Source: Amphiscolops sp. MND2022 (taxonomy: Eukaryota). From it: a stretch of 64,000 nt of DNA. The stretch lies in contig OZ076409.1 in assembly GCA_964187785.1 (NCBI GenBank), positions 72,728,001-72,792,000 of the forward strand, written 5' to 3'. Below, piece by piece: positions 16,115-64,000 of the stretch (its first letter is position 1; the number at the start of each line of letters is the position of its first letter). The notes below the pieces were generated by a model, which saw only the letters and a program-made list of their open reading frames with translations, was not told the DNA's origin and searched no databases. The translations under genes and the position numbers were made by a program.

Positions 16115-16155
16115 GATAGCCTTCCAAGTTGGCCTTCGGCCAACTTGGAAGGCTA
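16115..16155 (+). other. Type II internal hairpin (example): TAGCCTTCCAAGTTGGCC-TTC-GGCCAACTTGGAAGGCTA
   Basis: Perfect 18-bp inverted repeat here. Variants at 1688, 11178, 20866, 29187, 34286, 37436, 44336, 49985, 57889, 59248, 63509. Confidence 0.88.
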
Positions 16156-25693: not shown

Positions 25694-26970
25694 GTGGCCG
25701 GAAATTTTTTTTTTCATCAAAATCTTTGCCATTGGGGGAGGGGCCCCGGATGGCCAGTAGTTCGGCTTGGCTACCTGCAAAATCAGGTACAAAAAAACAC
25801 GATCTCAAAATTGGCCCGTCAGAATTCGCTCATTTTTTGCATGCGGCCCTAGAATCAATATATAAGAACAAAGTCCTGCTGACGTTTTGCCGAAAAAACA
25901 TTTTTTGTTGACCAAAAATAACATTTTTCATGCCAAAATGACCGTTTTTTCACATTTTTCAACTTTGAGAGCTCATATCTCGTTCCCAGGTACCCGGAGC
26001 GGTTCGCACGTGAACTGCAATATTGCTCAGCGTTGTTAACGGAGTGCGTGGACAAATTTTGGTCCAAATTGGACTTAAACTCGGGGAGATATAAACGGAT
26101 TTTTGGGGGTTTCCGGGGTAAATTTTTTAACGGTCCAGCTTATCTTTGCCATTTTTTGGAAAATGTACTCGCCTAAAGGCCTCCCCCTGGCCGAATTTAC
26201 TCCCAGCAAAACCATTTGGCCCTAAATACGGAGTTTCAGCGTTCTAGCATTTCCGGGCGAAAAGTTGTGGGACTTAGAAAAAATTCAAAAATTTTCAAAA
26301 TTTTTTTTTTCGTTTTCCGGCCCCCCAATGAAGGGGAACGACCCCCCAACTAGGATTTTTGGTGAATCCATGCGAAAATGTCTTTTTTAGTGGAGAAAAA
26401 TGCCGTTTATAGCGACTTTTTATCTTAACTTGACGTTGACTTATGTCGTTTTGAATTTGATATTAGTATGTGTTGAGCATGTGAAAAGTTGAACATTTCA
26501 GTTGTTCTTTCGTGTTAGCCATTGAGATACAAGCTGTAGTGATCAAATTGTGATTTTTTGCGGTTTCGTGGTGCTTTTGGTGTATTTTGATTCTTTTGAT
26601 AAAAAAGTTGTTCTTTATATATTGACAATTTTGTTGTATTGATTCCATTGAACATGAAACAGTTGAGTACATTTCATCTCCCTCTTGGGGGAGATGAGAA
26701 TGTACTCGCTAAAGTCCTAGTACTATGGCCCATTTTTGTTTTTATCAGACGCAGATACTGCCAACGGATACATTTTGTTGGTGCAACTTTCCTGTGCACA
26801 ATGTCTTTAGAAGCTAGAAACTCTATGTCTCTAGCTTACTTCTCCTACAAATTCGTCACCAACGTCAACGCCACACACTCTCACTAACGCCCACCGTCTG
26901 TGGGCATGCCGAGGCATGCCCTTCGACGACGTATGCCAAATAGCGCCACAGGGCGCCCAATTTTGTCTAG
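25694..26970 (+). repeat. Short cassette with family-A head and mosaic body (1277 bp)
   Basis: First ~68 bp match family A, then it diverges; the 3' half is a more distant A relative. Confidence 0.85.
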
Positions 26971-29769
26971 GTGGCGGGGGGCTGTCCCCAATAGAATATA
27001 GTGAGGTAGGGTAGGGTTCCCTACCGAACATTCAGTACTGAAAGACTCTTGTAGTATGAAAATTTTTCGATGTTTTGAGACCGATTTCGGATTCCACCCG
27101 TCAGAAGTTTATGATTTTTTGGCCCCCACCCAGATTTTGGGCACTGATCGCCCCCCACCAGGTTCCATACCCGTGGTTTCGTTGTGACGGGTACACGAGC
27201 GACCGTTAGGGGTCAATCAGGGGGTAAAATTTATAAAAGTGTGAATAACTTTTCCCCCCGTCGTTTTAGCAGGTCCGGTCACTAGTAAAGGTTTGTTGGG
27301 CATCATGCAGTGGGTACGGGGGGCCAAACAAAAATTTTCTATCATGCACCGTTACGGACTTGGCCCCCCGCCCAAACCGCTATTTTACCGGAAATTGCAC
27401 TTTTTGAACGGGAAGGAGTCGTCTGAGCGCGGAGTCGTTTGGTAATGTTTTGTAGAGCATCTGAAGACGTGGTGGGGGACATGTAGTTTGCCGACCCCAG
27501 TTTACCCCTCGGACGGGAAATGACCGTTATGTTAGTTTTAAAATTGCCCCCCGTCAACTTTAACCGCTATTTCTGGTGTGAAGGAGTCGGAACAGCGTGT
27601 CGGGTGCTATATATCAAAAGTAGCTTTAAACAAGGACCTATCAGAAACATGTGGTTTGGGACCCTTTGAACGGACCCGTTAGCCGGAAATAGGGTGACCG
27701 CCCCCTTTTTCTGCGGTTAAAATTGTAAAACGGGCATTGAAGTGGAATTATCTTGGAAACGCGTGGAGCAATCGTGTCCATCACTCCTACAAGGTTTCAT
27801 ACCCATGACATGGTGTCTTCAGGGGGGCAAACAGATCAGCGCTATCTATCACCGTTACGGACTTTGCCCCCCAGCCTAACCGCTATATTACCGGAAACTG
27901 CCCTTTTTGACCGGGAAGGAGTCGTCTGAGAGTGGAGTCGTTAAGTAATGTTTTGTAGAGCATCTAGAGACGTGTTGGGGGACATGTAGTTTGCCGACCC
28001 CTGTTTACCCCTCGGACGGGAAATGACCGTTATGTTAGTTTTAAAATTGCCCCCCGTCAACTTTAACCGCTATTTCTGGTGTGAAGGAGTCGGAATAGCG
28101 TGTCGGGTGCTACATATCAAAAGTAGCTTTAAACAAGGACCTATCAGAAACATGTGGTTTGGGACCCTTGGAACGGACCCGTTAGCCGGAAATAGGGTGA
28201 CCGCCCCCTTTTTCTGCGGTTAAAATTGTAAAACGGGCATTGAAGTGGAATTATCTTGGAAACGCGTGGAGCTATAGTGTCCTTCACTACTACAAGGTTT
28301 CATACTCAAGATACGGTGCCTTCAGGGGGGAAAACAGATTACCGCTATATATCACCGTTACGGACTTGGCCCCCCAGCCTAACCGCTATGTTACCGGAAA
28401 TGTCATTTTTTGAGCCAAAAGGGTTAGTCCCAGCGTGGGAACGTCAGGTAACTTTATGTAGAACTCAATGAGACGAGTTGGGGGATATGGTTTCAGTCAC
28501 CCCCCGTTGACCCGTTAGACCGGAAACGACCGTTATGTAGTGAAAAATGTAATTTTTATACTTTTTGAAGGCCATTTAGGGCAGGAAGTATCGGTAATAT
28601 GTCTTTGGACAGTATACAATGAAAGTTTTGGTGTGAAACAAGCAATCTGAAATATCCGTTATTATGATTCGGAAGTCACACTAACAGCGAAAATGACCGT
28701 TATGTAGTGAAAATTTTTTTCACATTTTTTTTGCTTTCGATAGGTCCTTCAAGCCAAGAAGTAGCTGTATTAGGTCTTTGGCCACTTTATGATGATTGTG
28801 GTGTTGTGAGATGACCGTACGAACTTGACCTTTATAATGCCCCTGAAGTTGCTGCGGCACGAGAAATTTCAGAAAGTTTGTCTTTTCTGTGTTTTGTTGG
28901 AATAAACATTTAATTTCATTAAACCAATGTGCATTCAGGGTGTTTAGAAAGCTTCAAGAAAAGAATTTAATAGGAAACATGGCGGTGAGAAATAACAAAT
29001 TGCCACGTAAATCCAACCCCCGTTGGGGAATAAATGTAATAAATTGTTTTGGAAGTGCCAATCGACGTGTATTTGCGGATCATAGCCACGGTATTGTCTA
29101 TTCGTGTTTCTTTTTGAAGACTTTGAACATTTTCACTTTATCAGCTTGAGGTTTTAACTCTATATGCTTAATAACCGTTACAATATGATAGCCCTCAAGT
29201 TGACCTTGTGTCAACTTGAAAGGGCTATCCTTTCACAACTGCGCAGCAACAGTGTGATTGAGTGATTTAGTTATTATCCAAGGCCAATTTGAACTTCAAC
29301 AAGATTTTAACCACAATATTTAAAACTATTCATATGATTCTTTCAAAAGGGTAAATATTTAACTAATATTTGACAAAAAAACTCCAACCTTTAATTTGTG
29401 GACCGAATAGTAGGAAAACCATGTTTCTTAACGTTGTTGGATGAAATTCAAAATGATGCTTTTAAAAGAATAACAATTCTTGACACTATATATTTTTTCT
29501 ATTTTCCAATAAACTATTTTTCCAAAAGTCTATTTTTCCAATAAACATTGTTGATTGATGCCCATTCATAGTGACTGGAAAGTTTTACCAACTGTGGTGT
29601 TTTTTTTTAATCAGAGGTGAAACCGCTCCCTACCGTCGCATAATGTAATTCAAGCCGACGCCCACATGCCAACATCAACGCCCACCGTCCGTAGGCATGC
29701 CGAGGCATGCCTTTCGACGACGTATGCCAAATCACGCCCCTGCGAGGTCACTAAAGCGGTAGCGGCTAG
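26971..29769 (+). repeat. Cassette family G (2799 bp) with ~503-bp internal tandem repeat
   Basis: ACCGTTACGGACTT..CCCCC at 27348, 27851, 28354. Type II hairpin 29187-29229; variant end box 29693-29712. Confidence 0.87.
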
Positions 29770-31960
29770 GTGGAGGTTATTTTATAATAATTAAAGTGTT
29801 TTTTTCCGGAGTTTGTGGCTTTGGAAAAAACAAAAGGCGAGAAATTGGGCACTCCGGGCTGAACCGTATACACTCAAAATTCGCCCAATATTTATACGAT
29901 CTCGAAACCCAGCCGTACGATTTGGCTGAAAATTTGCATGCGGCTAAAAAATCAGATTCTAAGAACTATTTCCTGCTGACATTTTTTTGAAATTTTTGTG
30001 TACGTTTCCCCCCCGCCCCCTAAAGGGGTCAATTTTCCCCAATTTTGCACTTATGAGCCAAATTCTCAAAACTGGTGGATCTGAGCGTATTCCCGGCGGG
30101 GACAACTTTTAACGCGCGCTCCTCAGTAGACCTTTTTGACTTTTAACTTTGGTGGTACGTTCACCCCCCGAGGAGGAAATGGCGTTTTTGTGACTTCCGG
30201 TCGAGGCTTTTTTCACCCAAAAAATAGAATTAAGCCAATTTTGAGCAGGAAGGAGTGGATTTAAAGTGCCTGTACCCTGCTAAAAATTTGTTGGGCTTGT
30301 AGCGATATATCTCATACCAAGTCTGGTTTTCACCCCCAAACCCCCCTTGGGACCAAAATTCACCCAAACTTTTTTTACCTCTGTTTGTAGTTTTTTTTGC
30401 AAAATGTCGTCATTTCCATGGGTAAGGAGTTGAATTAGGGGCTCCTAATAGGGTACCAATGTTCAAGTACACTTGCAGTGCAACTGAGTGACCCTTTTGG
30501 GGCCTCTCCTGTGTTCGGCGAGGACCGGAAGTGGTGTAAACCCCCCTTTTTTGACGTTTGTTGACCTTGAGACTCGCGCTTAGATGACGTTTATGTCGCG
30601 CAAATCCTACAAACCAGTATTAGGATGACATGCTAGCCTACTAGAGAGCACTAAGGGAAACTATACTATACCGGAAGTAACCCCCCGTGACCGGAAGTTG
30701 TCATTTTTGACCGGAAATGGTCCAAAACATAGCGTAAAAGCAGTTTTCATTGCTTTTAAAGTCAACTTATTACTTTTTTCAGTCTGCGCGAGCTTGTCTT
30801 CAGATTCGTTTTTGTTGTCCGTGCACACTACAACAAATATACATCTGTAGAACTTTTGCTATAATATCGTCGGAGAGAGAAATAACGGGTTTTCGGAATT
30901 TTTTTTCAAAAATGTTTGTCTATATCTATCATTTTTACCCAACGTTATTCAACAGTAGAACCACAGGGGTTAGTATCTGCCAAAATATATGCCTAACAAA
31001 ACCACTCGTCCCATTGGTTGCAGTTTGAGCGTTCTAGCTTTGCCTGGTCACAAGTTGAGGGACTTCAAAAAGTTTCAAATTTTTTTGGAAAATTTTTTTT
31101 AAACGTCACGTCTCCCAAAGTTAAGAATTTTCCACACAACTAGGATTGCAAGAGAATGCACATGGTAAGACCTATAAATCGAGAGAAAAATTCCGTTCAG
31201 AACGTCTCTTTATCGTTACGTGACGTTAAAAGATGTTGCTTTGAATGTGAATTTGATAATGCGTCGAGAAGTAAAAGAGTGTGAATGGATCCTATGTCTC
31301 GACAAATACTCATCGCAATACATACGATGAACCCCAATTACCCTCACTTTCAGTTGGCTAGTACATCAGCGTCTTCCAAGGACCGTTTACCTATTTAAAA
31401 ATTGTCAAATTCATTATTAATATCAGTTAGCAAGAAATATTTGAGTACATTGTCATCTCTCCCCATCGGGTGAGATGAGAATGTTCTTGCTAAAAGTCAA
31501 GTACTACGGCCCATTTTTGTTTTATTGCGACGTTTTCTGTGCCTTAGCACAAGGATACTTTTATGTCATCTCACTTTTGTTATACAATCTGACTTGTTGT
31601 TATAAAATTCTCGTCATTACTTTACCTAAACTTACTACCATGCATCTTTAACGTCAAAGCCAAATTCATTTAGACGCCCACCATTCCGTAGGTATGCCGA
31701 GGTATGCCTTTCGAAGAAGTATGGCAAAACACAAACGGGCAAATGAAAAGGGCTGAAATTCAGAAACAGTCACAAACAATTTTGACTATTTGACCGATGG
31801 TAGGTTTTTATATGGAACTTACACATCACTGACATTTCAAAACATTCCAGCTGACGCCCACTTACAAACATCAACGCCCACCGTCTGTGGGCATGCCGAG
31901 GCATGCCCTTCGACGACGTATGACGAATCCACTCCAACGACACCCGCAGTCCTCAGCTAG
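29770..31960 (+). repeat. Cassette family B (2191 bp)
   Basis: Homologous to 2713-4905 except for the last ~40 bp. Confidence 0.9.
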
Positions 31961-33248
31961 GTGGCCGGAAATTTTTTTTTTCATCAAAATCTTTGCCATT
32001 GGGGGAGGGGCCCCGGATGGCCAGTAGTACGGCATAGCTCCCTACGGAATCCAGGCAAAAAAAACGTGATTTTGGAAACTAGCCGTCAGAATTTTCTCAA
32101 AATTTGCATACGGCTTCCTATGACAATCCTAAGAACTAATCCCTACTGGCATTTTGCCCAAAAAACGCAAAAAGTTGGTCAAAATCTTAGTTTTTTGGTT
32201 AAAAAATGGCAATTTTTCGAAAAATTTTTTTTTCAGAGACAATTACTCGTAACTGGTTCACCCAGCGCAAAAACGCCTAGCTGATTTATTGTTGGGCACT
32301 TCATGAGGAGTGCGTATACAAATTTTCGTTTAGATCGGAAAAAAAATGACTAAGTATTAGCCGGAATTCGGACGCATTTTTTCGCAAATTTTTGAAAACC
32401 TAGTCTATCTCTGCCGTTTTTTGCCCAGATTTTTTTCCAGGTCCTCTCCTAAAGGCCTCCCCTGGCCGGTTTACTTCCCAGAAAAACCATTTGGCCCTAA
32501 ATACGGAGTTTCAGCGTTCTAGCATTCCCGGGCGAAAAGATGTGGGACTTAGAAAAAATTCAAAATTTTTCAAAAATTTTTTTTTTCGTTTTCCGGCCCC
32601 CCAATGAAGGGGAACGACCCCCCAACGAGGATTTTTGGTGAATTCACGTGGAAAGGCCTTGTTTTGTGGAGAAAACTGCCGTTTAGAGCGACTTTTTATC
32701 TTAACTTGACGTTGACCTCTGTCGTTTTGAATTTGATATTAGTATGTGTTGAGCATGTGAAAAGTTGATGATTTCAGTTGTTCTCTCGTGTTCAAGCCAT
32801 TGAGATACAAGCGGTAGTGATCAAAATGTGATTTATCGCAATTTGGTGGTGCTTTTGGTGTATTTTGATTCTTTTAAATAAAAAGTTGTTCTTTATATAT
32901 TTGGTGTATTGATTCAAATTAACAAGAAACAGTTGAGTACATTTCATCTCCCCCCTTGTGGGGGAGATGAGGATGTACCCGCTAAATGACACGCACAATG
33001 GCCCACTTTTACTTTTATGCGACGTTTTCTAGGCTTTTGCGCAAGCCCACTAATATTTAGACTGGTTTCCTTTTCTTTTACTCCAAAATTTTCCGTACTA
33101 ACCACCGTACGCACCACCAGCTCAACGTAACATCTGTAACGTCAACGCCACACACTCTCACTAACGCCCACTGTCCGTGGGCATGCCGAGGCATGCCCTT
33201 CGACGACGTATGCCAAATAGCGCCACAGGGCGCAAACTTGTCCGCTAG
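31961..33248 (+). repeat. Cassette family A (1288 bp)
   Basis: Near-identical to 34637-35923. Confidence 0.92.
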
Positions 33249-34636
33249 GTGGTTGGGGCAGTCCCCAGAACGCACAAGGAGGCGCGGGGAGGGTCCTGCG
33301 CCGACGTAGAATAATTTCATATAATACTAGTATCCTACATGGGTGTTTTAGAAGCGATTTTGGAATCTAACCGTAGGATTTGGATAATTTTTTGCATGCG
33401 GCCATAACTCGAAATTCTAAGAACTTTTTCCTACTGTCATTTTCCCCGCAAATTGTTTTTTGTTGACTTATGGCCGAAAAACCGGAAATAACGTCCTTTT
33501 TAGACGTTATATCCGAAGTGTCGACTTAACTTTTTTCCAGGGCACGCTAGCGTTCTCGTTCACTTTTACACTTAGTTGCAGCATCTCAAAATACAACTGG
33601 TGGGAAATTTTGGTTGCATTCGGATCACCCCCCACCGAGATAGAAGGGTTTCCCCCTCCAGTTTTACCCCCCAAATTTGCAAAAAAGCCAATTTTGAGCA
33701 TGAAGCCGAGGATTTAGCGTACCTGCACCCCTCTGATGTTTTGTTGTACGTTTTGAGGTCAACCTGATGACATGTGTGGTTTTCACCCCCAACCCCCCCT
33801 GGGACCGGAAATGACACTTTTTTGTGTTTTTTGGCAGAATTTAGCCTTTTTCATTATTAGGCAGTCGTTTTAAGGACTCTTAGCAGGATATCGAAATTGA
33901 AATACGACCTGATCACAACCCAGTGACAACATGTTGGCCACTTGGAGGTATCATCATGACCGGAAGTGGGGTCAACCCCCCTTTTTGTGACCGCTTTTTG
34001 ACCTTGTGCACAAAAATGCCAACAACTTGAGGCCTAATGACGCATTCAAATCTGTACAAAGATAAAATGTTAGACAACCGAAGTCCCGGAAGATCTTTAG
34101 CATATACCGGAAGTTACCCCCCATGACCGGAAGTTACCCAATGTGACCGGAAATGGTCCAAAAATTAATGTAAAGTTGAATTTTTTACTATTTCAAGACC
34201 ACTTCATTGAACATTTTCATTCCCAAAACTAGCGTACTGGCTTGTTTTGCTGAATTTGTGGAAATTGATGAGCTCTATCACCCCCGATAGCCTTCGAAGT
34301 TGACCTTGCGTCAACTTTGGAGGCTATCGATACTGAAAATGAACAACAAAGTACATTGTTGCTTTCGGTTTTTTCCCGTTGTTTTGCCTCAAACATTCTT
34401 GAGACATATACATGGCCGTTAGTTGAAATCAATATTTAGCCCATGTTATAGCTGGAGCAGCGAAGCGTTACACAGACTAGTGTGGGTTTGAAATTACAAT
34501 TATTAAATTAACAACTGACCGTCTTAGTCAACTCCACACATTCATACCAACGCCCACCGTCTGTGGGCATGCCGAGGCATGCCCTTCGACGACGTATGAC
34601 GAATCCACTCGAACGACACCCGCAGTCCTCAGCTAG
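33249..34636 (+). repeat. Cassette family H (1388 bp)
   Basis: Homologous to 58212-59598; type II hairpin 34286-34328. Confidence 0.9.
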
Positions 34637-35923
34637 GTGGCCGGAAATTTTTTTTTTCATCAAAATCTTTGCCATTGGGGGAGGGGCCCCGGATGGCCAG
34701 TAGTACGGCATAGCTCCCTACGGAATCCAGGCAAAAAAAACGTGATTTTGGAAACTAGCCGTCAGAATTTTCTCAAAATTTGCATACGGCTTCCTATGAC
34801 AATCCTAAGAACTAATCCCTACTGGCATTTTGCCCAAAAAACGCAAAAAGTTGGTCAAAATCTTAGTTTTTTGGTTAAAAAATGGCAATTTTTCGAAAAA
34901 TTTTTTTTTCAGAGACAATTACTCGTAACTGGTTCACCCAGCGCAAAAACGCCTAGCTGATTTATTGTTGGGCACTTCATGAGGAGTGCGTATACAAATT
35001 TTCGTTTAGATCGGAAAAAAAATGACTAAGTATTAGCCGGAATTCGGACGCATTTTTTCGCAAATTTTTGAAAACCTAGTCTATCTCTGCCGTTTTTTGC
35101 CCAGATTTTTTTCCAGGTCCTCTCCTAAAGGCCTCCCCTGGCCGGTTTACTTCCCAGAAAAACCATTTGGCCCTAAATACGGAGTTTCAGCGTTCTAGCA
35201 TTCCCGGGCGAAAAGATGTGGGACTTAGAAAAAATTCAAAATTTTTCAAAAATTTTTTTTTCGTTTTCCGGCCCCCCAATGAAGGGGAACGACCCCCCAA
35301 CGAGGATTTTTGGTGAATTCACGTGGAAAGGCCTTGTTTTGTGGAGAAAACTGCCGTTTAGAGCGACTTTTTATCTTAACTTGACGTTGACCTCTGTCGT
35401 TTTGAATTTGATATTAGTATGTGTTGAGCATGTGAAAAGTTGATGATTTCAGTTGTTCTCTCGTGTTCAAGCCATTGAGATACAAGCGGTAGTGATCAAA
35501 ATGTGATTTATCGCAATTTGGTGGTGCTTTTGGTGTATTTTGATTCTTTTAAATAAAAAGTTGTTCTTTATATATTTGGTGTATTGATTCAAATTAACAA
35601 GAAACAGTTGAGTACATTTCATCTCCCCCCTTGTGGGGGAGATGAGGATGTACCCGCTAAATGACACGCACAATGGCCCACTTTTACTTTTATGCGACGT
35701 TTTCTAGGCTTTTGCGCAAGCCCACTAATATTTAGACTGGTTTCCTTTTCTTTTACTCCAAAATTTTCCGTACTAACCACCGTACGCACCACCAGCTCAA
35801 CGTAACATCTGTAACGTCAACGCCACACACTCTCACTAACGCCCACTGTCCGTGGGCATGCCGAGGCATGCCCTTCGACGACGTATGCCAAATAGCGCCA
35901 CAGGGCGCAAACTTGTCCGCTAG
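34637..35923 (+). repeat. Cassette family A (1287 bp)
   Basis: Near-identical to other A copies. Confidence 0.92.
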
Positions 35924-37896
35924 GTGCGGGGGGGTAACCCCAACAAAATTTTTGGAGGATTCGGGTAGGGTCCTGAATCCGATTTCAACTCTAATAGCTA
36001 TCGATAGGAAATCTTGCAAAAATTTCGGGATCTCGTGATCTAACCATAGGATTTTAAAGTTGGAGCGGCCCCCACCAGATTTTCCAAAGTTATTCGCCCC
36101 CCACCGGGTTCCAGAGTGATTGAAATATTCTGACGGGGTACACGGGCGACCGTTAGGGGTCATTTTAGGGGTAAAATTTATATAATGTCGCATAACTTTT
36201 TTCCTGTTGGATTAAAACTTTGGGACCCTGCTAAAAGTTTCTTGACCGTGTTGCGGGGGCTCCGGAGGTCCAAACCAAATTTTTCTATCTTGAAGCTATC
36301 TCCAAGTACCCCCCCGCCCAAACCGTTATTTTTCCGGAAACGCAGGTTTTTGACCCGGAAGGAGTCGTCTGAGCGCGGGGTCGTTAGGTGATGTATTGGG
36401 GACGGCCTTGAGACGAAGCGGGGGATATATAGTTTGCCGACCCCAGTTTACCCCCCGCACGGGAAATGACCGTTATATGAGCGGGAAAAATGCCCCCCTC
36501 CACGTTTTACCGCTATTTCCGGTGTGAAGGAGTGGGAGTAGCGCGTCGGGTGTTATATAACAAAAGTAGGTTTAGACAAGGACCTATCGGAAACATGTAG
36601 TTTGGGACCCCCTGGACCAACCCGTTAGCGGGAAATGGGGCTTCCGCCTCCTTTTTTTACTGCTAAAACCGTAAAATGGGCATTGAGGGGTAAATATCTC
36701 GTGAACGCGTGGAGCTACGGTGTCCATCACTACTACAAGGTTTCATACCCATGATATGGTGCCTTCAGGGGGGCAAACAGATTTCCGCTATCTATCACCG
36801 TTACCGACTTGGCCCCCCAGCCTAACCGCTATGTGACCGGAAATGTCACTTTTTGAGCCCAAAGGGTCGGTCCCAGCCGGGGAACGTTAGGTAACTTATT
36901 GTAGTACTCAATGAGACGAGTTGGGGGATATAGTTTCAGTCACCCCCCGTTACCCCTTGGGACCAGAAATGACCGTTATGTGGGTAAAATTGCAATTTTT
37001 ATACTTTTTCAAGTGTATTTAGGTGCGGAAGGAGTGGTAATAGGTGCTTGGACACTATATGAGGTAAGGGAGGACGTGAGGCGAGCATTCGGAAATAACC
37101 GTTATGTTGACCCTAAAGTCCCCCTGGTACCGTAAACGACCGGAAATGGTCAAATTTTGTGTCTATTGGGTACAAATGTTTAGTATTTTGTAGATAAAAG
37201 TATCTATTAGGTGTTTCGACGGTCTGCAATAGTGAACATAGTCATGAAACCTTGTGGGGGGTAACGGGGTATATAGCACCGGAAGTCCAAACCGTTGGAC
37301 ACAGGATAAGTTTTTGGTTTGAAAATGTCTTTCGGCGTACTTTTGTCGACTATTATGGACTATTATTAAAAATGAAAGTTTTTCCATATAGTTTCAGAGA
37401 CTCCGAAACCTCAACCAACATAACCGTTACATTTTGATAGCCTTTCAAGTTGGCCTGGTGTCAACTTGGAAGCGCTATCCTTCTGAAATCGTTAATCAAG
37501 AGTGTTTTTGGGTAGGTATATATTGCATTAGTACCAATTAGAGCTTCATCAACAGTGTATCAACGACAAAAACTATGCCGTCATGATTCCGTTATTAGAA
37601 TCATAGTGAGCAAATTGTTGAAAAAAATGGTTTTTTCCATACAAAATGTGTCCTAAATGCCAGGAAACCTATTTACCTAACAAATGGTATTAATTGGAAT
37701 GTATGTAACAGATTTATAAAAGTTCAAATTGAATATTACATTTCATTATGGAAGCTGAAACGTCATATTTTAGTTTAATTAACGTCAACGCCACACACTT
37801 TACATCAACGCACACCGTCTGTGGGCATGCCGAGGCATGCCCTTCGACGACGTATGACAAATCCATATCAAACGACGCCCGTACATCCCGGGCTAG
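35924..37896 (+). repeat. Cassette family G (1973 bp)
   Basis: Shares head and GGGAAATGACCGTTAT repeat with 26971-29769; type II hairpin 37436-37479. Confidence 0.87.
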
Positions 37897-39170
37897 GTGC
37901 CGGGATTTCCATTCGATAAGGTATTCTGCGCGTGTGGGTAGGGCCCCTGGCGCGCTCCTGTGTTTTCGGTTTTCCTACTCCAAATTCACACCCCAGTTAT
38001 CTCCGATCTCGTAAACTATCCATACGATTTGGCTGAAACTTGGCACACAGCTTCGTTGGAACATTGTAAGAACAAATCCCTACTGACGTTTTGCCCGCTA
38101 AACATTTTTTGTTGGTCAAAAATGCGATTTTCCGACAAAATTTTTGACTTTTTTTTCTTTTTCAACTCATATCTCGCCACAGGGTCACGCTAGCGCTTTG
38201 CAACCTATGATCCTTTTTTGTAGGGCATTGCATGTAGAACACGTATGCCAATTTTGGTGGCGATAGGACTTAAACTCAGGGAGATATAACGATTTTTTAG
38301 GTGCATTTTTTGACATTTTTTGCATTTGCTGATTTATCTTTGCCGTTTTTTGCCCAGATTTTTTTTGAGACACTCTCCTAAAGACCTCCCCTGGCCAGTT
38401 TACCTCCCAGCAAAACCATTTGGCCCTAAATACGAAGTTTCAGCGTTCTAGCAATCCCGGGCGAAAAATTATGGGACTTAGAAAATTTTTTTGAAAACGC
38501 AAAATGTGTAAAGTCAACTTCAGGCCTCCCAAAGTCAAGGAACTTTCACACAACTAGGATTGCAAGTGGATGCATGTGGAAAGTACTGGGATAGACGAGA
38601 AAAATGAGCTATAGAACGACTCTGTAGCATAACTTGACGTTGACTTATGATGTTTTGAATGTGTGCTTGCTAAGGGGTCCGAAATTGAAAATTTTTAAAG
38701 AAAATTAATATCGTCAAAAATTCATCGAAATGCCTGCAATATACAGTAGAGCGTGTTCAATTGTAGCTGACTAATGCATCAACGCAACTCAAGGTCTTTT
38801 AACTCAGTTTCAAATTTTTTTACACTGTATTATCCATCCGAGAGATCGAAACAGTTGAGTACATTCCATCTCCCTCCCGGGGGAGATGAGAATGTACTCG
38901 CTAAAGTCCAGATACCACAGCCCATAATTGTTTCTCTGCAACGCCATCTATGCTACTGCACATAACTACTAATCTTAGGACTGAATTTTGCCTTCGCTTT
39001 GACTTGACATATGCTGAAGGTTTGATCCTTTCACACATCAATATTACCTGAACAAAACAACCCTAACATCAACGCCCCACACTCACATCAACGCCCACCG
39101 TCCGTGGGCATGCCGAGGCATGCCCTTCGACGACGTATACCAAGATATACATAAGCGCGGTAGCCGCTAG
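37897..39170 (+). repeat. Short cassette, family D-like (1274 bp)
   Basis: Related to 21872-23148 and 24430-25693. Confidence 0.88.
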
Positions 39171-40458
39171 GTGGCCGGAAAATTTTTTTTTCAGCAAAAT
39201 CTTTGCCATTGGGGGAGGGGCCCCGGATGGCCAGTAGTACGGGATAGCTTCCTACCAAATCCAGGCGGAAAAAACGTGATTTTGGAAACTAGCCGTCAGA
39301 ATTTGCTCAAAATTTGCATACGGCTTCCTATGACAATCCTAAGAACTAATCCCTACTGGCATTTTGCCCAAAAAACGCAAAAAGTTGGTCAAAATCTTAG
39401 TTTTTTGGTCAAAAAATGGCAATTTTTCGAAAAAAAATTTTTTCAGAGACAATTACTCGTAACTGGTTCACCCAGCGCAAAAACGCCTAGCTGATTTATT
39501 GTTGGGCACTTCATGAGGAGTGCGTATACAAATTTTCGTCCAGATCGGAAAAAAAATGACTAAGTATTAGCCGGAATTCGGACGCATTTTTTCGCAAATT
39601 TTTGAAAACCTAGTCTATCTCTGCCGTTTTTTGCCCAGATTTTTTTCCAGGTCCTCTCCTAAAGGCCTCCCCTGGCCGGTTTACTTCCCAGAAAAACCAT
39701 TTGGCCCTAAATACGGAGTTTCAGCGTTCTAGCATTCCCGGGCGAAAAGATGTGGGACTTAGAAAAAATTCAAAATTTTTCAAAAAATTTTTTTTTCGTT
39801 TTCCGGCCCCCCAATGAAGGGGAACGACCCCCCAACGAGGATTTTTGGTGAATTCACGTGGAAAGGCCTTGTTTTGTGGAGAAAATTGCCGTTTAGAGCG
39901 ACTTTTTATCTTAACTTGACGTTGACCTCTGTCGTTTTGAATTTGATATTAGTATGTGTTGAGCATGTGAAAAGTTGATGATTTCAGTTGTTCTCTCGTG
40001 TTCAAGCCATTGAGATACAAGCGGTAGTGATCAAAATGTGATTTATCGCAATTTGGTGGTGCTTTTGGTGTATTTTGATTCTTTTAAATAAAAAGTTGTT
40101 CTTTATATATTTGGTGTATTGATTCAAATTAACAAGAAACAGTTGAGTACATTTCATCTCCCCCCTTGTGGGGGAGATGAGGATGTACCCGCTAAATGAC
40201 ACGCACAATGGCCCACTTTTACTTTTATGCGACGTTTTCTAGGCTTTTGCGCAAGCCCACTAATTTTTAGACTGGTTTCCTTTTCTTTTACTCCAAAATT
40301 TTCCGTACTAACCACCTTACGCACCACCAGCTCAACGTAACATCTGTAACGTCAACGCCACACACTCTCACTAACGCCCACCGTCCGTGGGCATGCCGAG
40401 GCATGCCCTTCGACGACGTATGCCAAATAGCGCCACAGGGCGCAAACTTGTCCGCTAG
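39171..40458 (+). repeat. Cassette family A (1288 bp)
   Basis: Near-identical to other A copies. Confidence 0.92.
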
Positions 40459-43400
40459 GTGCCGGGATTACTATTCGTTCGAGTATGTGGCGCGTGTGGG
40501 TAGGGCCCCTGGCGCGCTCTTTTATTTCGGGTACACCTACTCCAAATTCACGATGTGATTTCGACGATCTCGTAAACTAGCCACACGATTTGGCTGAAAT
40601 TTGGCACACGTACCCCCCTCGGCACGGTGAAGATGATTCCCTACTGACGTTTTGCCCGCTAAACATTTTTTGTTGACCAAAATAACGGTTTTTGGGGGAA
40701 AATTTTGAACTTTTTTTAAATTTCGTCTTATATCTCGCCACGGGTTTACGCTAGCGCTTCAAAACCTTGCTAACGAAAGTTTGCAAACTGTCTCAGGAAT
40801 GCGGTGTGAAAATTTCAGCCCAATCGGACTTAAACTCGAGGAGATATAGCGTTTTTCCGGAGCGGGGGGGTTTCATTTTTCTAACGGTCCAGCTTATCTT
40901 TGCCATTTTTTCGAAAATGCACTCGCCTAAAGGCCTCCCCTGGCCGGTTTTATTCCCAGCAAAACCATTTGGCCCTAAATACGGAGTTTCAGCGTTCCAG
41001 CATTCCCGGGCGAAAAGTTGTGGGACTTAGAAAATTTCAAAAATTTTCAAAAAAATTTTTTCCGTTATTTGGGCCCCCAAAGTGGGGCAAAAGACCCCCC
41101 AACCAGTAAAGCAAGTGAATGCATGTGGAAAGCCCTTGTTTAGACGAGAAAAATGGCGTTTAGAACGTTTTTTTATCGTAACTTGACATTGACTTTTGTC
41201 GTTTTGAAGGTGACCGTTAGATACGGAAAATTGATGTTTTGAGTGTTTATCCCATCTGAAAGCCATTGAGATACAACATGTTTTGCTCAAAACGTGTTTC
41301 ATTGGAGTTTCGCTGTCCATTAACACCCTTTGGTGTCTTTTGACGTAATTTTCGTTTCTATAATAACAATTTCTTTGTGTATTTATTCATTTTTTTCTCA
41401 TCAAATAACTTGAAACAGTTGAGTACATTCCATCTCCCTTCCCGGGGGAGATGAGAATGTACTCGCTAAAGGTCAGGAACTACGGTCTATATCTTCCACA
41501 ACACAAAAGAGATTGCAAATTGTTTCAGTTTGTCGCAGAAAACTTCTTTTTGCACTCTGTGACTCGACAAAGTGAACGTTTCTTACTTACTTTGAATCTC
41601 ACCATACCACAACTCATCTCTAACGTCAACGCCCCCCACACACATCAACGCCCCCCGTCCGTGGGCATGCCGAGGCATGCCCTTCGACGACGTATAGCAA
41701 AATATATTCGAACGCGGTAGCCGCTAGGTGCCGGTGTCTTTTTACACAATGGGGGAAGTTGCGCGGTTGGGGAGGGTCCCTGACGCGCTTCCGTGAGATC
41801 AGGTTTTTCAACTAGTGAAATCGACAAAGAAAATTGAGATCTCGTAAACTAGCCATACGATTTGGCTGAAATTTGGCACACGTACCCCCCTCGGCACGGT
41901 GAAGATGATTCCCTACTGACGTTTTTCCCGCTAAACATTTTTTGTTGACCAAAATAACGGTTTTTGGGGTAAAATTTTCAACTTTTTTTAAATTTCATCT
42001 TATATCTCGCCACGGGTACACGCTAGCGCTTCCGAACCTTGCTGACGAAAGTTTGCAAACTGTCTCAGGAATGCTGTGTGAAATTTTCAGCTCAATCGGA
42101 CTTAAACTCGAGGAGATATAGCGTTTTTCCGGAGCGGGGGGGTTTCATATTTCTAACGGTCCAGCTTATCTTTGCCATTTTTTCGAAAATGCACTCGCCT
42201 AAAGGCCTCCCCTGGCCGGTTTTATTCCCAGCAAAACCATTTGGCCCTAAATACGGAGTTTCAGCGTTCCAGCATTCCCGGGCGAAAAGTTGTGGGACTT
42301 AGAATTTTTCAAAAATTTTCAAAAAATTTTTTTTCCGTTATTTGGGCCCCCAAAGTGGGGGAAAGCACCCCCCAACCAGTAAAGCAAGTGAATGCATGTG
42401 GAAAGCCCTTGTTTAGAGGAGAAAAATGTCGTTTAGAACGTCTTTTTATCTTGGCTCAACGTTGACTTATGACGTTTTGAAGGTGATGTTTGGAGGTGTA
42501 AAGCACGTGAATAGTAAACGTTATGAGTATTTATCTGATCTGAAAGCCATTGAGATGCAATATGGTTTGCTCAAAACGTAATTCATTGCAGTTTGGCAAT
42601 CAATCAACACCCTTTGTTGTCGTTTGACATACTTTTTTGTTGTTATAATAAAAAATTTTGTGTATTTATTCATTTTTTTCTCATCAAATAACTTGAAACA
42701 GTTGAGTACATTCCATCCCCCCTTCCGGGGGAGATGAGAATGTACTCGCAAAAAGCACCGAACTACGGCCCTTACCTTCCCGAGCTACGCAGTATAAGGA
42801 TTAGATATTGGTTCCGACATTTTCATAGAGTTAAATCTTGGTAATCTGTCTGGATATGCAGAAAAATCAGCACGTGCCTTTTAATACCAAGTTGCTTACA
42901 ACGACAATTATTTTATATCAACGCCCCCATATTTATCAACGCCCCCCGTCCGTGGGCATGCCGAGGCATGCCCTTCGACGACGTATACCAAGATATACAT
43001 AAGCGCGGTAGCCGCTAGGTGCCGGTGTTTTTTTACACAATGGGGGAAGTTGCGCGTGTGGGGAGGGTCCCTGACGCGCTCCCGGGATTTCGGATTTTTT
43101 AACCTTTACGTACCCATCAAAAATTTTGGGATCTCGAAAACTAGCCGTACGATTTGGCTGAAATTTGGCACACGTACCCCCCTCGGCACGGTGAAGATGA
43201 TTCCCTACTGACGTTTTGCTCGCTAAACATTTTTTGTTGACCAAAATAACGGTTTTTGGGGTAAAATTTTCAACTTTTTTTAAATTTCATCTCATATCTC
43301 GCCACGGGTACACGCTAGCGCTTCCAAACCTCGCTGACGAAAGTTTGCAAACTGTCTCAGGAATGCTGTGTGAAATTTTCAGCTCAATCGGACTTAAACT

Positions 43401-44288
43401 CGAGGAGATATAGCGTTTTTCCGGAGCGGGGGGGTTTCATTTTTCTAACGGTCCAGCTTATCTTTGCCATTTTTTCAAAAATGCACTCGCCTAAAGGCCT
43501 CCCCTGGCCGGTTTTATTCCCAGCAAAACTATTTGGCCCTAAATACGGAGTTTCAGCGTTCCAGCATTCCCGGGCGAAAAGTTGTGGGACTTAGAAAATT
43601 TCAAAAATTTTCAAAAAATTTTTTTTCCGTTTTCCGCCCTCCCCCCCGAGGGGAAAAGACCCCCCAACCAGTAAAGCAAGTGAATGCATGTGGAAAGGCC
43701 ATGTTTAGAGGAGAAAAATGCCGTTTAGAACGTCTTTTTATCTTGGCTCAACGTTGACTTATGACGTTTTGAAGGTGATGTTTGGAGGTGTAAAGCACGT
43801 GAATAGTAAACGTTATGAGTATTTATCTGAACTGAAAGCCATTGAGATGCAATATGGTTTGCTCAAAACGTAATTCATGGCAGTTTGGCAATCAATCAAC
43901 ACCCTTTGTTGTCGTTTGACATACTTTTTTGTTGTTATAATAAAAAATTTTGTGTATTTATTCATTTTTTTTCTCATCAAATAACTTGAAACAGTTGAGT
44001 ACATTCCATCCCCCCCTTCCGGGGGAGATGAGAATGTACTCGCAAAAAGCACCGAACTACGGTCTACCTTCCCGAGCTACGCAGTATAAGGATTACATAT
44101 TGGTTCCGACATTTTCAAAGAGTTAAATCTTGGTAATCTGTCTGGATATTCAGAAAAAACAGCACGTGCCTTTTAATACCAAGTTGCTTACAACGACAAT
44201 TATTTTATATCAACGCCCCCATATTTATCAACGCCCCCCGTCCGTGGGCATGCCGAGGCATGCCCTTCGACGACGTATACCAAGATAT
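40459..44288 (+). repeat. Three family-E short cassettes (40459-41727, 41728-43018, 43019-~44288; the last lacks its CTAG end)
   Basis: Shared GGCACACGTACCCCCCTCGGCACGGTGAAGATGA block; type I hairpins; end boxes. Confidence 0.88.
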
Positions 44289-44307
44289 GCGTTAACGCGT
44301 TATAAAT

Positions 44308-44796
44308 AACTTAAATAACATAACCGTTATAATTTGATAGCCTTTCAAGTTGGCCTTGTGTCAACTTGGAAAGGCTATCCTTCAAGACTCATGCAACAAA
44401 GAAGTTTTTGGGTACATTTGTAATGCTTTAGTGTCAATTAGAGTATCAACAAGAGTATACCAAGCACTAAAACTATGTCTAGTTTTCGTTATTAGGATAT
44501 TAGTTTCCTGAATATTTGTCGGAAATGCTTTTTTAAATCTCTTTTAATGTGGTCTAAATACTCTGAAAACACTTTATCGAACCAATTTTCTTGGATGAAC
44601 CTTAGTAACAATACTAAAAATCGTAGACAACCTTGCTTCGTTTAAATATTTGAAGCTGAAACCGCACCTTACCGTTGCTCAAACTTCAACCCGACGCCCC
44701 ATAGCATACATCAACGCACATCGTCTGTGGGCATGCCGAGGCATGCCCTTCGACGACGTATGCCAAATACCTTTAACCCGACGCCCGCAGTCCTGG
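44308..44796 (+). repeat. 5'-truncated cassette (3' 490 bp of the 61955-63969 type)
   Basis: Matches 63481-63969, including the type II hairpin and CTGG end. Confidence 0.88.
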
Positions 44797-46084
44797 GTGG
44801 CCGGAAATTTTTTTTTTCATCAAAATCTTTGCCATTGGGGGAGGGGCCCCGGATGGCCAGTAGTACGGTATAGCTTCCTACCAAATCCAGATGGAAAAAA
44901 CGTGATTTTGGAAACTAGCCGTCAGAATTTGCTCAAATTTTGCATACGGCTTCCTATAACAATCCTAAGAACTAATCCCTACTGGCATTTTGCCCAAAAA
45001 ACGCAAAAAGTTGGTCAAAATCTTAGTTTTTTGGTCAAAAAATGGCGTTTTTTCGAAAAAATTTTTTTTCAGAGACAATTACTCGTAACTGGTTCACCCA
45101 GCGCAAAAACGCCTAGCTGATTTATTGTTGGGCACTTCATGAGGAGTGCGTATACAAATTTTCGTCCAGATCGGAAAAAAAATCACTAAGTATTAGCCGG
45201 AATTCGGACGCATTTTTTCGCAAATTTTTGAAAACCTAGTCTATCTCTGCCGTTTTTTGCCCAGATTTTTTTCCAGGTCCTCTCCTAAAGGCCTCCCCTG
45301 GCCGGTTTACTTCCCAGAAAAACCATTTGGCCCTAAATACGGAGTTTCAGCGTTCTAGCATTCCCGGGCGAAAAGATGTGGGACTTAGAAAAAATTCAAA
45401 ATTTTTCAAAAATTTTTTTTTTCGTTTTCCGGCCCCCCAATGAAGGGGAACGACCCCCCAACGAGGATTTTTGGTGAATTCACGTGGAAAGGCCTTGTTT
45501 TGTGGAGAAAATTGCCGTTTAGAGCGACTTTTTATCTTAACTTGACGTTGACCTCTGTCGTTTTGAATTTGATATTAGTATGTGTTGAGCATGTGAAAAG
45601 TTGATGATTTCAGTTGTTCTCTCGTGTTCAAGCCATTGAGATACAAGCGGTAGTGATCAAAATGTGATTTATCGCAATTTGGTGGTGCTTTTGGTGTATT
45701 TTGATTCTTTTAAATAAAAAGTTGTTCTTTATATATTTGGTGTATTGATTCAAATTAACAAGAAACAGTTGAGTACATTTCATCTCCCCCCTTGTGGGGG
45801 AGATGAGGATGTACCCGCTAAATGACACGCACAATGGCCCACTTTTACTTTTATGCGACGTTTTCTAGGCTTTTGCGCAAGCCCACTAATTTTTAGACTG
45901 GTTTCCTTTTCTTTTACTCCAAAATTTTCCGTACTAACCACCTTACGCACCACCAGCTCAACGTAACATCTGTAACGTCAACGCCACACACTCTCACTAA
46001 CGCCCACCGTCCGTGGGCATGCCGAGGCATGCCCTTCGACGACGTATGCCAAATAGCGCCACAGGGCGCAAACTTGTCCGCTAG
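44797..46084 (+). repeat. Cassette family A (1288 bp)
   Basis: Near-identical to 50446-51732. Confidence 0.92.
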
Positions 46085-47376
46085 GTGCCGGGATTTCTAT
46101 TCGATAAAGTATGTGGCGCGCCTTGGGTAGGGTCCCTTGCGCGCTTTTGGGTATGGTGTTCACCAGCTAGGAAATAGGGGTCGATTTTTCGGGATCTCCT
46201 AAACTAGCCACACGATTTGGCTGAAATTTGGCACACGTACTCCCCTCGGCACGGTGAAGATGATTTCCTACTGACGTTTTTCCCGCAAAATTTTTTTTGT
46301 TGTCCAAAATAACGGTTTTTGGGGTAAAATTTTGAATTTTTTTTAAATTTTATCTTATATCTCGCCACGGGTTTACGCTAGCGCTTCAAAACCCTGCTAA
46401 AGAAAGCTTGCAAACTGTCTCAGGAATGCGGTGTGAAATTTTCAGCTCAATCGGACTCAAACTCGGGGAGATATAGCGTTTTTCCGGAGCGGGGGGGTTT
46501 CATTTTTCTAACGGTCCAGCTTATCTTTGCCATTTTTTCGAAAATGCACTCGCCTAAAGGCCTCCCCTGGCCGGTTTTATCCCCAGCAAAACCATTTGGC
46601 CCTAAATACGGAGTTTCAGCGTTCCAGCATTCCCGGGCGAAAAGTTGTGGGACTTAGAATAATTCAAAAATTTTCAAAAAAATTTTTTTCCGTTATTTGG
46701 GCCCCCAAAGTGGGGGAAAAGACCCCCCAACCAGTAAAGCAAGTGAATGCATGTGGAAAGCCCTTGTTTAGAGGAGAAAAATGCCGTTTAGAACGTCTTT
46801 TTATCTTGGCTCAACGTTGACTTATGACGTTTTGAAGGTGATGTTTGGAGGTGTAAAGCACGAGAATAGTAAACGTTATGAGTATTTATCTGATCTGAAA
46901 GCCATTGAAATGCACTCTGTTTTGCTCAAAACGTAATTCATATCCGTTTGGTAGTCAATCAACACCCTTTGTTGTCTTTTGACATCTTTTTTTTTGTTGA
47001 TATAAGAAAAAATTTTGTGTATTTATTCAATTTTTTCTCATCAAATAACTTGAAACAGTTGAGTACATTCCATCCCCCCTTCCGGGGGAGATGAGAATGT
47101 ACTCGCAAAAAGCACCGAACTACGGCCCTTACCTTCCCGAGCTACGCAGTAAAAGGATTACATATTGGTTCCGACATTTTCATAGAGTTAAATCTTGGTA
47201 ATCTGTCTGGATATGCAGAAAAACCAGCACGTGCTTTTTTATACCAAGTTGCTTACAACGACAATTATTTTATATCAACGCCCCCATATTTATCAACGCC
47301 CCCCGTCCGTGGGCATGCCGAGGCATGCCCTTCGACGACCCGCACCAAAATATACGTCGAGCGCGGTAGCAGCTAG
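46085..47376 (+). repeat. Family-E short cassette (1292 bp)
   Basis: E body, a distinct head, and a tail shared with 24430-25693. Confidence 0.87.
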
Positions 47377-63969: not shown

Positions 63970-64000
63970 GTGCCGGGATTTCTATTCGATAAAGTATGTG

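What the first reader, a model, noticed from the sequence alone, without database searches (positions are those of the whole stretch)
35957..35980. Head stem-loop with freely covarying stem and conserved KAGGGY-type loop
About 30-60 nt into most cassettes is a hairpin whose stem sequence changes between families while pairing persists. Examples: GGATTCGGG-TAGGGT-CCTGAATCC (35957), GGTAGGG-TAGGGTT-CCCTACC (27005), GGCGCGGG-GAGGGT-CCTGCGCC (33281), GCCATTGGGG-GAGGGG-CCCCGGATGGC (4940), CCGCGGG-AGACGGGA-CCCGCGG (7502). Mismatches are often G-T on the + strand, suggesting the + strand folds as ssDNA or RNA. This is selection on structure, which neutral satellite DNA would not show. Family B lacks this loop.
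Basis: partly seen in the sequence, partly recalled or inferred. Interest (0 to 1): 0.78.

Follow-up and report, generated by a model that had tools for sequence, protein, structure and literature searches.

The report
End hairpin of self-stacking mobile cassettes
This hairpin sits at a fixed distance from the start of nearly every unit in a long one-way array of non-coding DNA cassettes and keeps its shape while its stem sequence changes; it is likely the start signal read on single-stranded DNA by a rolling-circle (Helitron-like) transposase, not found here, that would insert these units into each other's junctions.

Summary
The hairpin is real. 33 of 35 evaluable cassette heads carry it on the + strand, 41-51 nt after a CTRG|GTG junction, and it occurs nowhere else except in one duplicated head. 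Stems are replaced wholesale yet still pair (arm-swap p=4e-5; drift simulation 12.0 vs at most 7.2). Column-wise covariation, whole-head folding energy and the G-T excess are not above controls. Better strand evidence is a tandem G·A/A·G mismatch capping several different stems (5 of 11 stem types; shuffled mean 0.15). A ~70%-identical homolog in a metagenome contig (L002) keeps tail, junction and hairpin. The window is a head-to-tail mosaic of ~21 non-coding families. One family has seven different downstream neighbours, joined within a 4-nt window without target duplication. The head stem's 5' arm is modestly complementary to its own cassette's 3' end (p≈0.003, post hoc). Best reading (0.55): left-end signal of non-autonomous Helitron-like elements that target their own end-to-start junction. 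Canonical termini (5' TC, A|T or T|T target, 11-17 nt inverted repeats) are not met. No transposase, genome or RNA data were available.

The parts
35957..35980 (+). Head stem-loop of the finding (9-bp stem with one G-T pair, loop TAGGGT)
   Evidence: DNA fold -6.6 kcal/mol on +, -4.5 on -; z -1.8 vs -0.7
35955..35982 (+). Same hairpin with tandem GA/GA mismatch cap (35955-56 opposite 35981-82)
   Evidence: seen by eye; the X1 contig lists no change at 35952-35982 but 17 at 35983-36023
35920..35926 (+). Cassette junction CTAG|GTG; crossover inferred within the last four bases
35928..35941 (+). Small first hairpin (G-run/C-run) present in part of the heads
36029..36070 (+). Conserved 'core' block about 105-130 nt into most cassettes (approximate end)
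35924..37896 (+). The cassette that carries the finding (1973 nt, no long ORF)
37436..37479 (+). Internal long hairpin (H4 type) shared by several families
37823..37842 (+). Invariant tail hairpin of this cassette, 54 nt before its CTAG end
37878..37888 (+). Tail-spacer stretch partly complementary to the 5' arm of this cassette's head hairpin (weak in this family)
   Evidence: by eye; family-wide statistics
35854..35873 (+). Invariant tail hairpin of the preceding (family A) cassette
35612..35653 (+). Internal long hairpin (H3 type) of the preceding cassette
4940..4966 (+). Head hairpin, family A type (same type in 8 heads)
7502..7523 (+). Head hairpin with 8-nt loop variant
27005..27025 (+). 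Head hairpin with tandem GA cap
33281..33302 (+). Head hairpin with tandem GA cap; same stem type as in L002
61985..62014 (+). Head hairpin whose 5' arm has the clearest second partner near its own 3' end
12202..12318 (+). Exact 58-nt duplication of a cassette's 5' end, starting at the junction and including the loop
2713..4905 (+). Family B cassette: no head hairpin, two tails (one degenerate); second copy at 29770-31960
44797..46084 (+). Family A cassette at a 'filled' site; matching 'empty' junction at 63966-63972, no target duplication
44305..44796 (+). 3' fragment of another family fused behind a tail that lost its CTAG (second copy near 49954-50445)
8258..9436 (+). Central 353-bp tandem repeat inside a long cassette (also 13423-14255, 17946-19114)
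1..64000 (+). Head-to-tail, single-orientation mosaic array: 36 junctions, 21 whole-cassette families at 90% identity plus one cut unit

Best explanation
The hairpin is a conserved structure at the left end of non-coding cassettes stacked head to tail at CTRG|GTG junctions, and it is likely the single-stranded DNA signal by which a rolling-circle (HUH, Helitron-like) transposase encoded elsewhere recognises the start of these non-autonomous elements. Inferred cycle: (1) the enzyme nicks at CTRG|GTG and holds the 5' end; (2) the + strand is displaced and the head hairpin folds, with a constant loop and closing G-C pairs and a free stem; (3) the invariant tail hairpin slows the enzyme, which cuts after the next CTRG and closes a circle, possibly helped by pairing of the head's 5' arm with the cassette's own 3' spacer; (4) because the element's end-to-start junction equals the preferred target, circles enter existing junctions in one orientation without duplication, giving a mosaic array; missed stops give double tails and captured 3' ends. 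SHOWN: hairpin, fixed spacing, structure conservation, precise junction shuffling, no ORFs. INFERRED: ssDNA rather than RNA, the enzyme class, every step of the cycle.
For: Heads are shuffled at the junction, not in the long invariant tail: same body gives same tail spacer in 26 of 30 pairs but same next head in 5 of 30; same head gives same preceding spacer in 6 of 42. Seven family-A copies have seven different downstream heads. The A/G of CTRG travels with the upstream unit, leaving a 4-nt crossover window. One empty/filled pair shows no duplication. Ends are CTAG or CTGG, fitting CTRR; the tail hairpin lies 44-57 nt from the end in 31 of 36 junctions and has compensatory variants (G-C to A-T in 29693 and L002; A-T to G-C in the long family). 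Bypassed tails and non-standard 3' ends match the read-through seen for Helraiser, where the left end is essential and the right end is loose (PMC4778049, passages). A duplicated 58-nt 5' end parallels the multiple 5' termini of FoHeli (PMC5148889, passages). Hairpins at both ends and central tandem repeats are Helitron2/HINE traits. Tandem GA/GA caps: 5 of 11 stem types vs shuffled mean 0.15, maximum 1 in 150, and no tandem TC/TC; this is not a dsDNA palindrome and points to the + strand. Head 5' arm vs own last 42 nt: -9.1 vs -8.1±0.4 kcal/mol, p=0.003 over 20 families; not so for the adjacent preceding tail (p=0.37) or for internal windows. Outside copies keep the hairpin.
Against: No transposase in the window (longest ORF 156 aa) and no genome to search. 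5' TC, A|T or T|T flanks and an exact inverted repeat of 11 nt or more are absent (longest head-tail match 9 nt). The L002 junction is CGAG|GTG, not CTRR. Family B lacks the hairpin yet occurs twice. Family A, the most dispersed, has weak head-tail complementarity; the effect is ~1 kcal/mol, post hoc, families are related, and the own tail ranks in the top 3 for only 4 of 20 heads. 4 of 30 same-body pairs have different spacers, and multi-kb blocks are duplicated, so ordinary recombination also shapes the array. The empty site rests on 31 nt of head at the window edge. G·A tandems and G-T pairs fit RNA equally well.
Confidence: 0.55

Rival explanations
1. The cassettes are copied through RNA (non-autonomous, site-specific non-LTR or retrozyme-like elements); the head hairpin is a 5' RNA element and insertion is by target-primed reverse transcription at the junction.
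For: Single orientation, no target duplication, 3' fragments lacking a head (44305-44796) and a 5'-end duplication are also what target-primed insertion can leave (recalled). Tandem G·A and G-U pairs suit RNA; the isolated hairpins fold better on + with RNA parameters in 5 of 5.
Against: No Rfam match at gathering in 64 kb and only chance-level hits at E<=5 in 10 kb. No consistent HDV-type P1 helix, and hammerhead core matches are not at a constant position. No poly(A) or simple-repeat tail. Heads are the precise end: every head but the duplicated one follows CTRG, while 5 of 36 upstream ends are non-standard.
Confidence: 0.14
2. A tyrosine-recombinase cassette system (integron-, DIRS- or Crypton-like) recombines folded single-stranded sites with a short GGTG overlap.
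For: 4-nt crossover window, conservative shuffling, and imperfect hairpins with extrahelical bases near the junction.
Against: The crossover lies between two separate hairpins, 44-57 nt from one and about 30 nt from the other, not inside one symmetric site. Cassettes carry no ORFs. A junction-complementary internal stretch is exact only in family A. 3' read-through products are not expected from a recombinase.
Confidence: 0.12
3. Another HUH class moves them: a Replitron-like element, or an IS200/IS605-type peel-and-paste enzyme that reads subterminal hairpins at both ends and a short target motif.
For: Replitron-1 inserts in a fixed orientation right after RG and has a right-end hairpin (PMC10288648, passages); here heads follow CT-RG. 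Hairpins at both ends plus a tetranucleotide 5' of the left end is the IS200/IS605 layout (recalled).
Against: No direct terminal repeat longer than the shared 4-7 nt junction. No conserved guide tetranucleotide at the hairpin foot is visible. Replitrons were reported from plants, algae and protists, and the host here is unknown.
Confidence: 0.12
4. The array is a host family of structured non-coding RNA genes, or a satellite kept by unequal crossing-over, with no dedicated mobility enzyme.
For: No ORFs; multi-kb block duplications and a homogeneous run of four near-identical units (51733-56821).
Against: Neighbour shuffling is confined to a 4-nt window although a ~60-nt invariant tail lies next to it. 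Stems are conserved as structure beyond drift. Unit length ranges from 1.07 to 4.95 kb.
Confidence: 0.07

Closest known systems
Helitron2 / Helentron non-autonomous elements (HLE2: DINE-1, HINE, Cg_HINE, FoHeli; PMC4067079, PMC7492417, PMC5148889, PMC11417382; passages read)
   Same: Hairpins at both ends; a 5' hairpin arm with a second partner near the 3' end (weak here); 3' hairpin roughly 40-60 nt from the end; central tandem repeats in some units; duplicated 5' termini; no target duplication; left ends more diverse than right ends.
   Different: No T|T flanks; no exact 11-17 nt inverted repeat; 5' hairpin starts ~30 nt in rather than 2-4 nt; 3' order is hairpin then complementary stretch; no microsatellite; many families stacked at each other's junctions.
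Canonical Helitron (HLE1; Helraiser, PMC4778049; passages read)
   Same: CTRR-type 3' end with an upstream hairpin; loose right end with read-through; head-to-tail junction identical to a circle junction.
   Different: Starts with GTG (or GGTG/TG), not TC; no A|T target; invariant hairpin 44-57 nt from the end, not ~11; structured left end.
Paramecium chromosome-end Helitrons (10.1101/2025.11.06.686955; passages and part 1 of section 18 read; supplements not seen)
   Same: Non-canonical termini, absolute orientation bias, compensatory changes in terminal stems, internal satellites, inferred sequence-specific target.
   Different: They are flanked by telomere repeats and end in CCAA; here units abut each other directly with no host sequence between.
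Replitrons (PMC10288648; passages read) and IS200/IS605-derived PATE/REP elements (recalled)
   Same: HUH-type anatomy: orientation-specific insertion after a short motif, terminal hairpins, usually no duplication.
   Different: No clear direct terminal repeat or guide motif; units are 1-5 kb with a shared internal core.

Membership tests
HLE1 (canonical Helitron) | 5' TC start | tested here: not met
   All 36 heads start GTG after CTRG
HLE1 (canonical Helitron) | 3' CTRR end | tested here: met
   32 CTAG and 4 CTGG of 36 (junctions were found by this motif, but the hairpin model found no other heads apart from the duplicated one); L002 has CGAG
HLE1 (canonical Helitron) | Hairpin 10-12 nt before the 3' end | tested here: not met
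   Invariant hairpin is 44-57 nt away; a small hairpin 11 nt before CTAG exists only in family A-type spacers
HLE1 (canonical Helitron) | Insertion between A and T | tested here: not met
   Flanks are CTRG and GTG of neighbouring units
HLE1/HLE2 | No target-site duplication | tested here: met
   One empty/filled pair, 63966 vs 44793-46084; only 31 nt of downstream head available
HLE1/HLE2 | Autonomous partner with RepHel transposase | not testable with these tools
   No long ORF; no genome held
HLE2 (Helentron/HINE/Helitron2) | Hairpins at both termini | tested here: met
   33 of 35 heads; 31 of 36 ends
HLE2 (Helentron/HINE/Helitron2) | Asymmetric terminal inverted repeat of 11-17 nt | tested here: not met
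   Longest exact match 9 nt in 21 head types; degenerate family-specific complementarity p≈0.003, post hoc
HLE2 (Helentron/HINE/Helitron2) | Insertion at T|T (or T|C), T-rich flanks | tested here: not met
HLE2 (Helentron/HINE/Helitron2) | 5' subTIR 2-4 nt from the start, followed by a microsatellite | tested here: not met
   Stem starts ~30 nt in; no head microsatellite
HLE2 (Helentron/HINE/Helitron2) | Central tandem repeats between terminal modules | tested here: met
   353-363 bp repeats in three long cassettes; absent from the ~1.28 kb units
Replitron | Short direct terminal repeats; insertion after RG | tested here: inconclusive
   Heads follow RG, but a repeat shared by abutting units cannot be told from the junction motif
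IS200/IS605-type (recalled features) | Guide tetranucleotide at the hairpin foot pairing with the cut site | tested here: inconclusive
   None conserved by eye; no formal test
Integron attC / tyrosine-recombinase cassettes (recalled features) | Crossover in one arm of a single folded site with inverse core sites; cassettes usually carry an ORF | tested here: not met
   Crossover lies between separate hairpins; no ORFs
Known ribozymes / Rfam families | Covariance-model match or HDV/hammerhead core at a constant place | tested here: not met

The most novel reading that the evidence does not exclude
A eukaryotic cassette-stacking system: dozens of divergent non-coding mobile families that an undescribed single-strand recombinase inserts site-specifically into their own end-to-start junction, with the head loop as constant enzyme signal and the changing stem as a family-specific barcode that pairs each left end with its own right end. 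The array would be a growing, ordered record of insertions, possibly extending a chromosome end.
Probability: 0.2. Interest if true: 0.85.

Novelty: new variant of a known kind. Interest (0 to 1): 0.6.

Why it matters
Helitron-like elements are known to prefer dinucleotides, and their left ends are hard to define by sequence. A lineage whose left end is conserved as a structure, and whose units of many families land precisely in each other's junctions, would show a strongly site-specific, self-targeting mode of rolling-circle insertion. It gives a direct test of how the enzyme matches the two ends, and such elements would be missed by tools that look for TC/CTRR or terminal inverted repeats. 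A site-specific ssDNA integrase with a 7-nt target and no duplication would also interest genome engineers. Ten full-text searches returned no description of such mixed-family arrays; Repbase and Dfam could not be searched, so family consensuses may already be deposited there.

Tried and rejected
Whole genome: none held. Rfam: 0 hits at gathering; 10 chance-level hits at E<=5 over 31800-41800. Viral contigs: 0 hits for three motifs. Phage records: no match. Metagenomes: 0 hits with the 32-nt tail, 3 with a 23-nt version, of which L001 and L003 share only the palindrome and were dropped; the one genome-contig hit (L004) has the same flanks and contig length as L001 and was dropped too. Sequencing runs: one run with 0.15 of the words; no RNA holder listed, which says nothing about expression. 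Model R1 and the count used a structure string that I had mis-registered by several columns; both were discarded and redone. Fixed-column covariation, whole-head folding energy and G-T skew gave no support. Long-range pairing of the core with the inverted 'anti-core' at about +355 beat all 100 shuffles in only about 7 of 21 families, so it is treated as an inverted motif, not a stem. Spacers as CRISPR- or guide-like sequences: no match to own bodies (p=0.22 and 0.35). A weak direct head-spacer match (p=0.003, scattered positions) was not pursued. Resemblance of some junctions to the CTCF consensus (recalled) fails for GTGC-type heads and for L002. Resemblance of the loop to a telomere hexamer register (recalled) is not kept in the GAGGG variants. 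The Hydractinia subtelomeric-repeat supplements (2 files held as text) do not contain the tail or junction motif. Look-ups of earlier scan findings by place and by sequence were empty.

Full report
SETTING. The window is non-coding (21 ORFs of 100 aa or more, longest 156 aa), about 41% GC, with no Rfam match. No genome is held and the organism is unknown; a eukaryote, probably an animal, is my guess from recalled resemblance of the internal core to DINE-1/HINE-like repeats, not from any call. Self-BLAST gave 1669 alignments, 2 of them on the minus strand: everything is in one orientation. There are 36 plus-strand CTRG|GTG junctions (32 CTAG, 4 CTGG), defining units of 1.07-4.95 kb that fall into 21 families at 90% identity plus one cut unit.

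OBSERVATION. The five quoted hairpins are at their coordinates. Heads group into 21 types at 88% identity; 20 carry GGG-loop-CCY with the loop starting 41-51 nt after the junction. A model built from 19 of the window head types plus L002 found 34 matches in the window and 1 in L002, all + strand and all at heads, none in L001 or L003. Family B (2713, 29770) lacks the hairpin. Structure is conserved while sequence is not: among 11 stem types that I picked as distinct out of the 20, own arms pair with score 14.6 against 8.8±1.2 for swapped arms (p=4e-5); over all 20 the figures are 13.1 and 10.3 (p=5e-4). With arms 32% identical between types, drift from a well-paired ancestor gives 4.3±1.0 (maximum 7.2 in 400) against 12.0 observed (star tree, so only a rough phylogenetic control).

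A tandem GA/GA mismatch caps the inner stem in 6 of 21 aligned heads (12203, 26971, 33249, 51733, 56822, 61955), that is 5 of the 11 types against a shuffled mean of 0.15 (maximum 1 in 150 runs), with no tandem TC/TC. By eye it is also present at 35924, 60886 and in L002. The inner stems under the cap differ (GGC, GCG, GGTA, GGCGC, GGATTC). GA on both arms of the same strand is not a double-stranded palindrome; it makes sense as a sheared G·A/A·G tandem in a folded + strand. That such tandems are stable in both DNA and RNA is recalled; my paper search for it found nothing.

OUTSIDE COPIES. L002 (OBOP01004400.1, 1172 nt, about 70% identical to the window) holds a body, the tail hairpin with a compensatory change, a junction CGAG|GTG and a head hairpin with loop TAGGGT and the GA cap, so the head-to-tail layout exists in another lineage. 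A contig of run X1 laid on 35919-36425 has 51 other letters in 507; among the rows shown, none lies at 35952-35982 and 17 lie at 35983-36023 (85 rows of the table were not shown, and this is one contig).

HOW THE ARRAY IS BUILT. Among 31 junctions with a standard tail, same body gives same post-hairpin spacer in 26 of 30 pairs but same next head in 5 of 30, and same head gives same preceding spacer in 6 of 42. Seven family-A units are followed by seven different heads. The A/G of CTRG follows the upstream unit, so the exchange point lies within four bases, too short for homologous recombination, although about 60 invariant bases lie just upstream. The 3' stretch 63478-63969 (98.6% identical to 44305-44796) is joined directly to a head identical over the 31 available bases to that at 46085, whereas at 44793 a family-A unit lies between them with no duplication. 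Left ends are precise; right ends are loose: 5 of 36 junctions lack the tail hairpin nearby, two families carry a bypassed tail, and the long family has a degenerate tail about 640 nt before its CTAG. One unit starts with an exact 58-nt repeat of its own 5' end. Block duplications of several kb and four spacer swaps show that ordinary recombination acts as well.

A SECOND PARTNER FOR THE STEM. Noticed and then tested: the 5' arm of the head hairpin is more complementary to its own unit's last 42 nt than to other families' (-9.1 vs -8.1±0.4 kcal/mol, p=0.003, 20 families). Controls: four internal windows p=0.08-0.98, the physically adjacent preceding tail p=0.37, shuffled own tail p=0.003; the signal peaks on the arm and loop when the head window slides, with a lesser peak at +25 (p=0.03). 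It is clear in 61955, 21872, 6194, 33249 and 26971, weak in family A and absent in the long family. It is post hoc, modest, and families are related, so it is a lead. It recalls the DINE-1/HINE layout in which a 5' subterminal repeat pairs either locally or with a 3' copy (PMC4067079, PMC7492417; passages).

MECHANISM. The simplest account is a set of non-autonomous rolling-circle elements. In Helraiser the left end is essential, the right-end hairpin is a stop signal that can be bypassed, and circles carry a precise CTAG-to-start junction (PMC4778049, passages). FoHeli elements have hairpins at both ends, a 3' repeat 38-51 nt from the end, TG or TC starts, and duplicated 5' termini ascribed to self-insertion (PMC5148889, passages). 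Here the head hairpin would be the left-end signal on the displaced + strand; the target would be an existing end-to-start junction, which explains single orientation, no duplication and the mosaic. All of this step-by-step cycle is inferred; no enzyme was found. Confidence 0.55. Rivals: RNA-based insertion 0.14, tyrosine recombinase 0.12, Replitron- or IS200/IS605-type HUH 0.12, host ncRNA array or satellite 0.07.

MEMBERSHIP AND NOVELTY. It works like a Helitron-type element but fails defining termini of both HLE1 (TC start, A|T target, hairpin spacing) and HLE2 (T|T target, 11-17 nt inverted repeat; PMC11417382, passages), so I do not file it in either. Paramecium chromosome-end Helitrons show that non-canonical, orientation-locked, sequence-targeted lineages exist (10.1101/2025.11.06.686955, passages and part 1 of section 18; supplements not seen). 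Hydractinia has subtelomeric Helitron-derived repeats (PMC11934779, first part of the text and a supplement search); Xenopus has short single-family Helitron tandems (PMC12001565, passages). Ten searches showed no mixed-family junction-targeted array; subscription papers, Repbase and Dfam were out of reach. Verdict: real structured terminus; new variant of a known kind; interest 0.6.

Noticed in passing
junctions (e.g. 35920-35926), tail loop (35861-35866), head loop (35966-35971), L002:879-885: A KAGG motif recurs in the junction (CTAGG, CGAGG in L002), the tail-hairpin loop and the head loop; the head loop is also complementary to five invariant bases of the tail hairpin's 3' arm. A shared recognition word or a loop-tail contact is possible; untested.
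   Followed up: no
35612-35653 and 37436-37479; L002:566-606: Two alternative long internal hairpins (H3, H4) lie some 230-1000 nt before the 3' end; a family has one or the other, and H3 shows a compensatory base change in L002.
   Followed up: partly
about +105-150 and +350-410 of most cassettes: A conserved core and an inverted, diverged copy of it; pairing beats shuffles only in some families. Possibly inverted protein-binding sites.
   Followed up: partly
5204-5212 and the same place (+298/299) in all 7 family-A units: A stretch complementary to the junction sequence; looser versions lie at +290-311 in several other families.
   Followed up: partly
51733-56821: Four consecutive units with the same head (three at >=90% overall), the only homogeneous run; fits local rolling-circle or unequal-crossover amplification.
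   Followed up: partly
39072-46104 vs 44694-51750: Multi-cassette block duplication, 96% identical.
   Followed up: no
25694-26970, 51733-53014, 46085-47376: Chimeric units: head of one family on the body or tail of another, showing internal recombination between families.
   Followed up: partly
2700-2712, 17140-17155, 61940-61954: The three kinds of non-standard 3' end all carry CTCCA within 10 nt before CTRG; unexplained.
   Followed up: no
27339-28538: Internal ~500-nt direct repeat (89% identical) in the 2.8-kb cassette.
   Followed up: no
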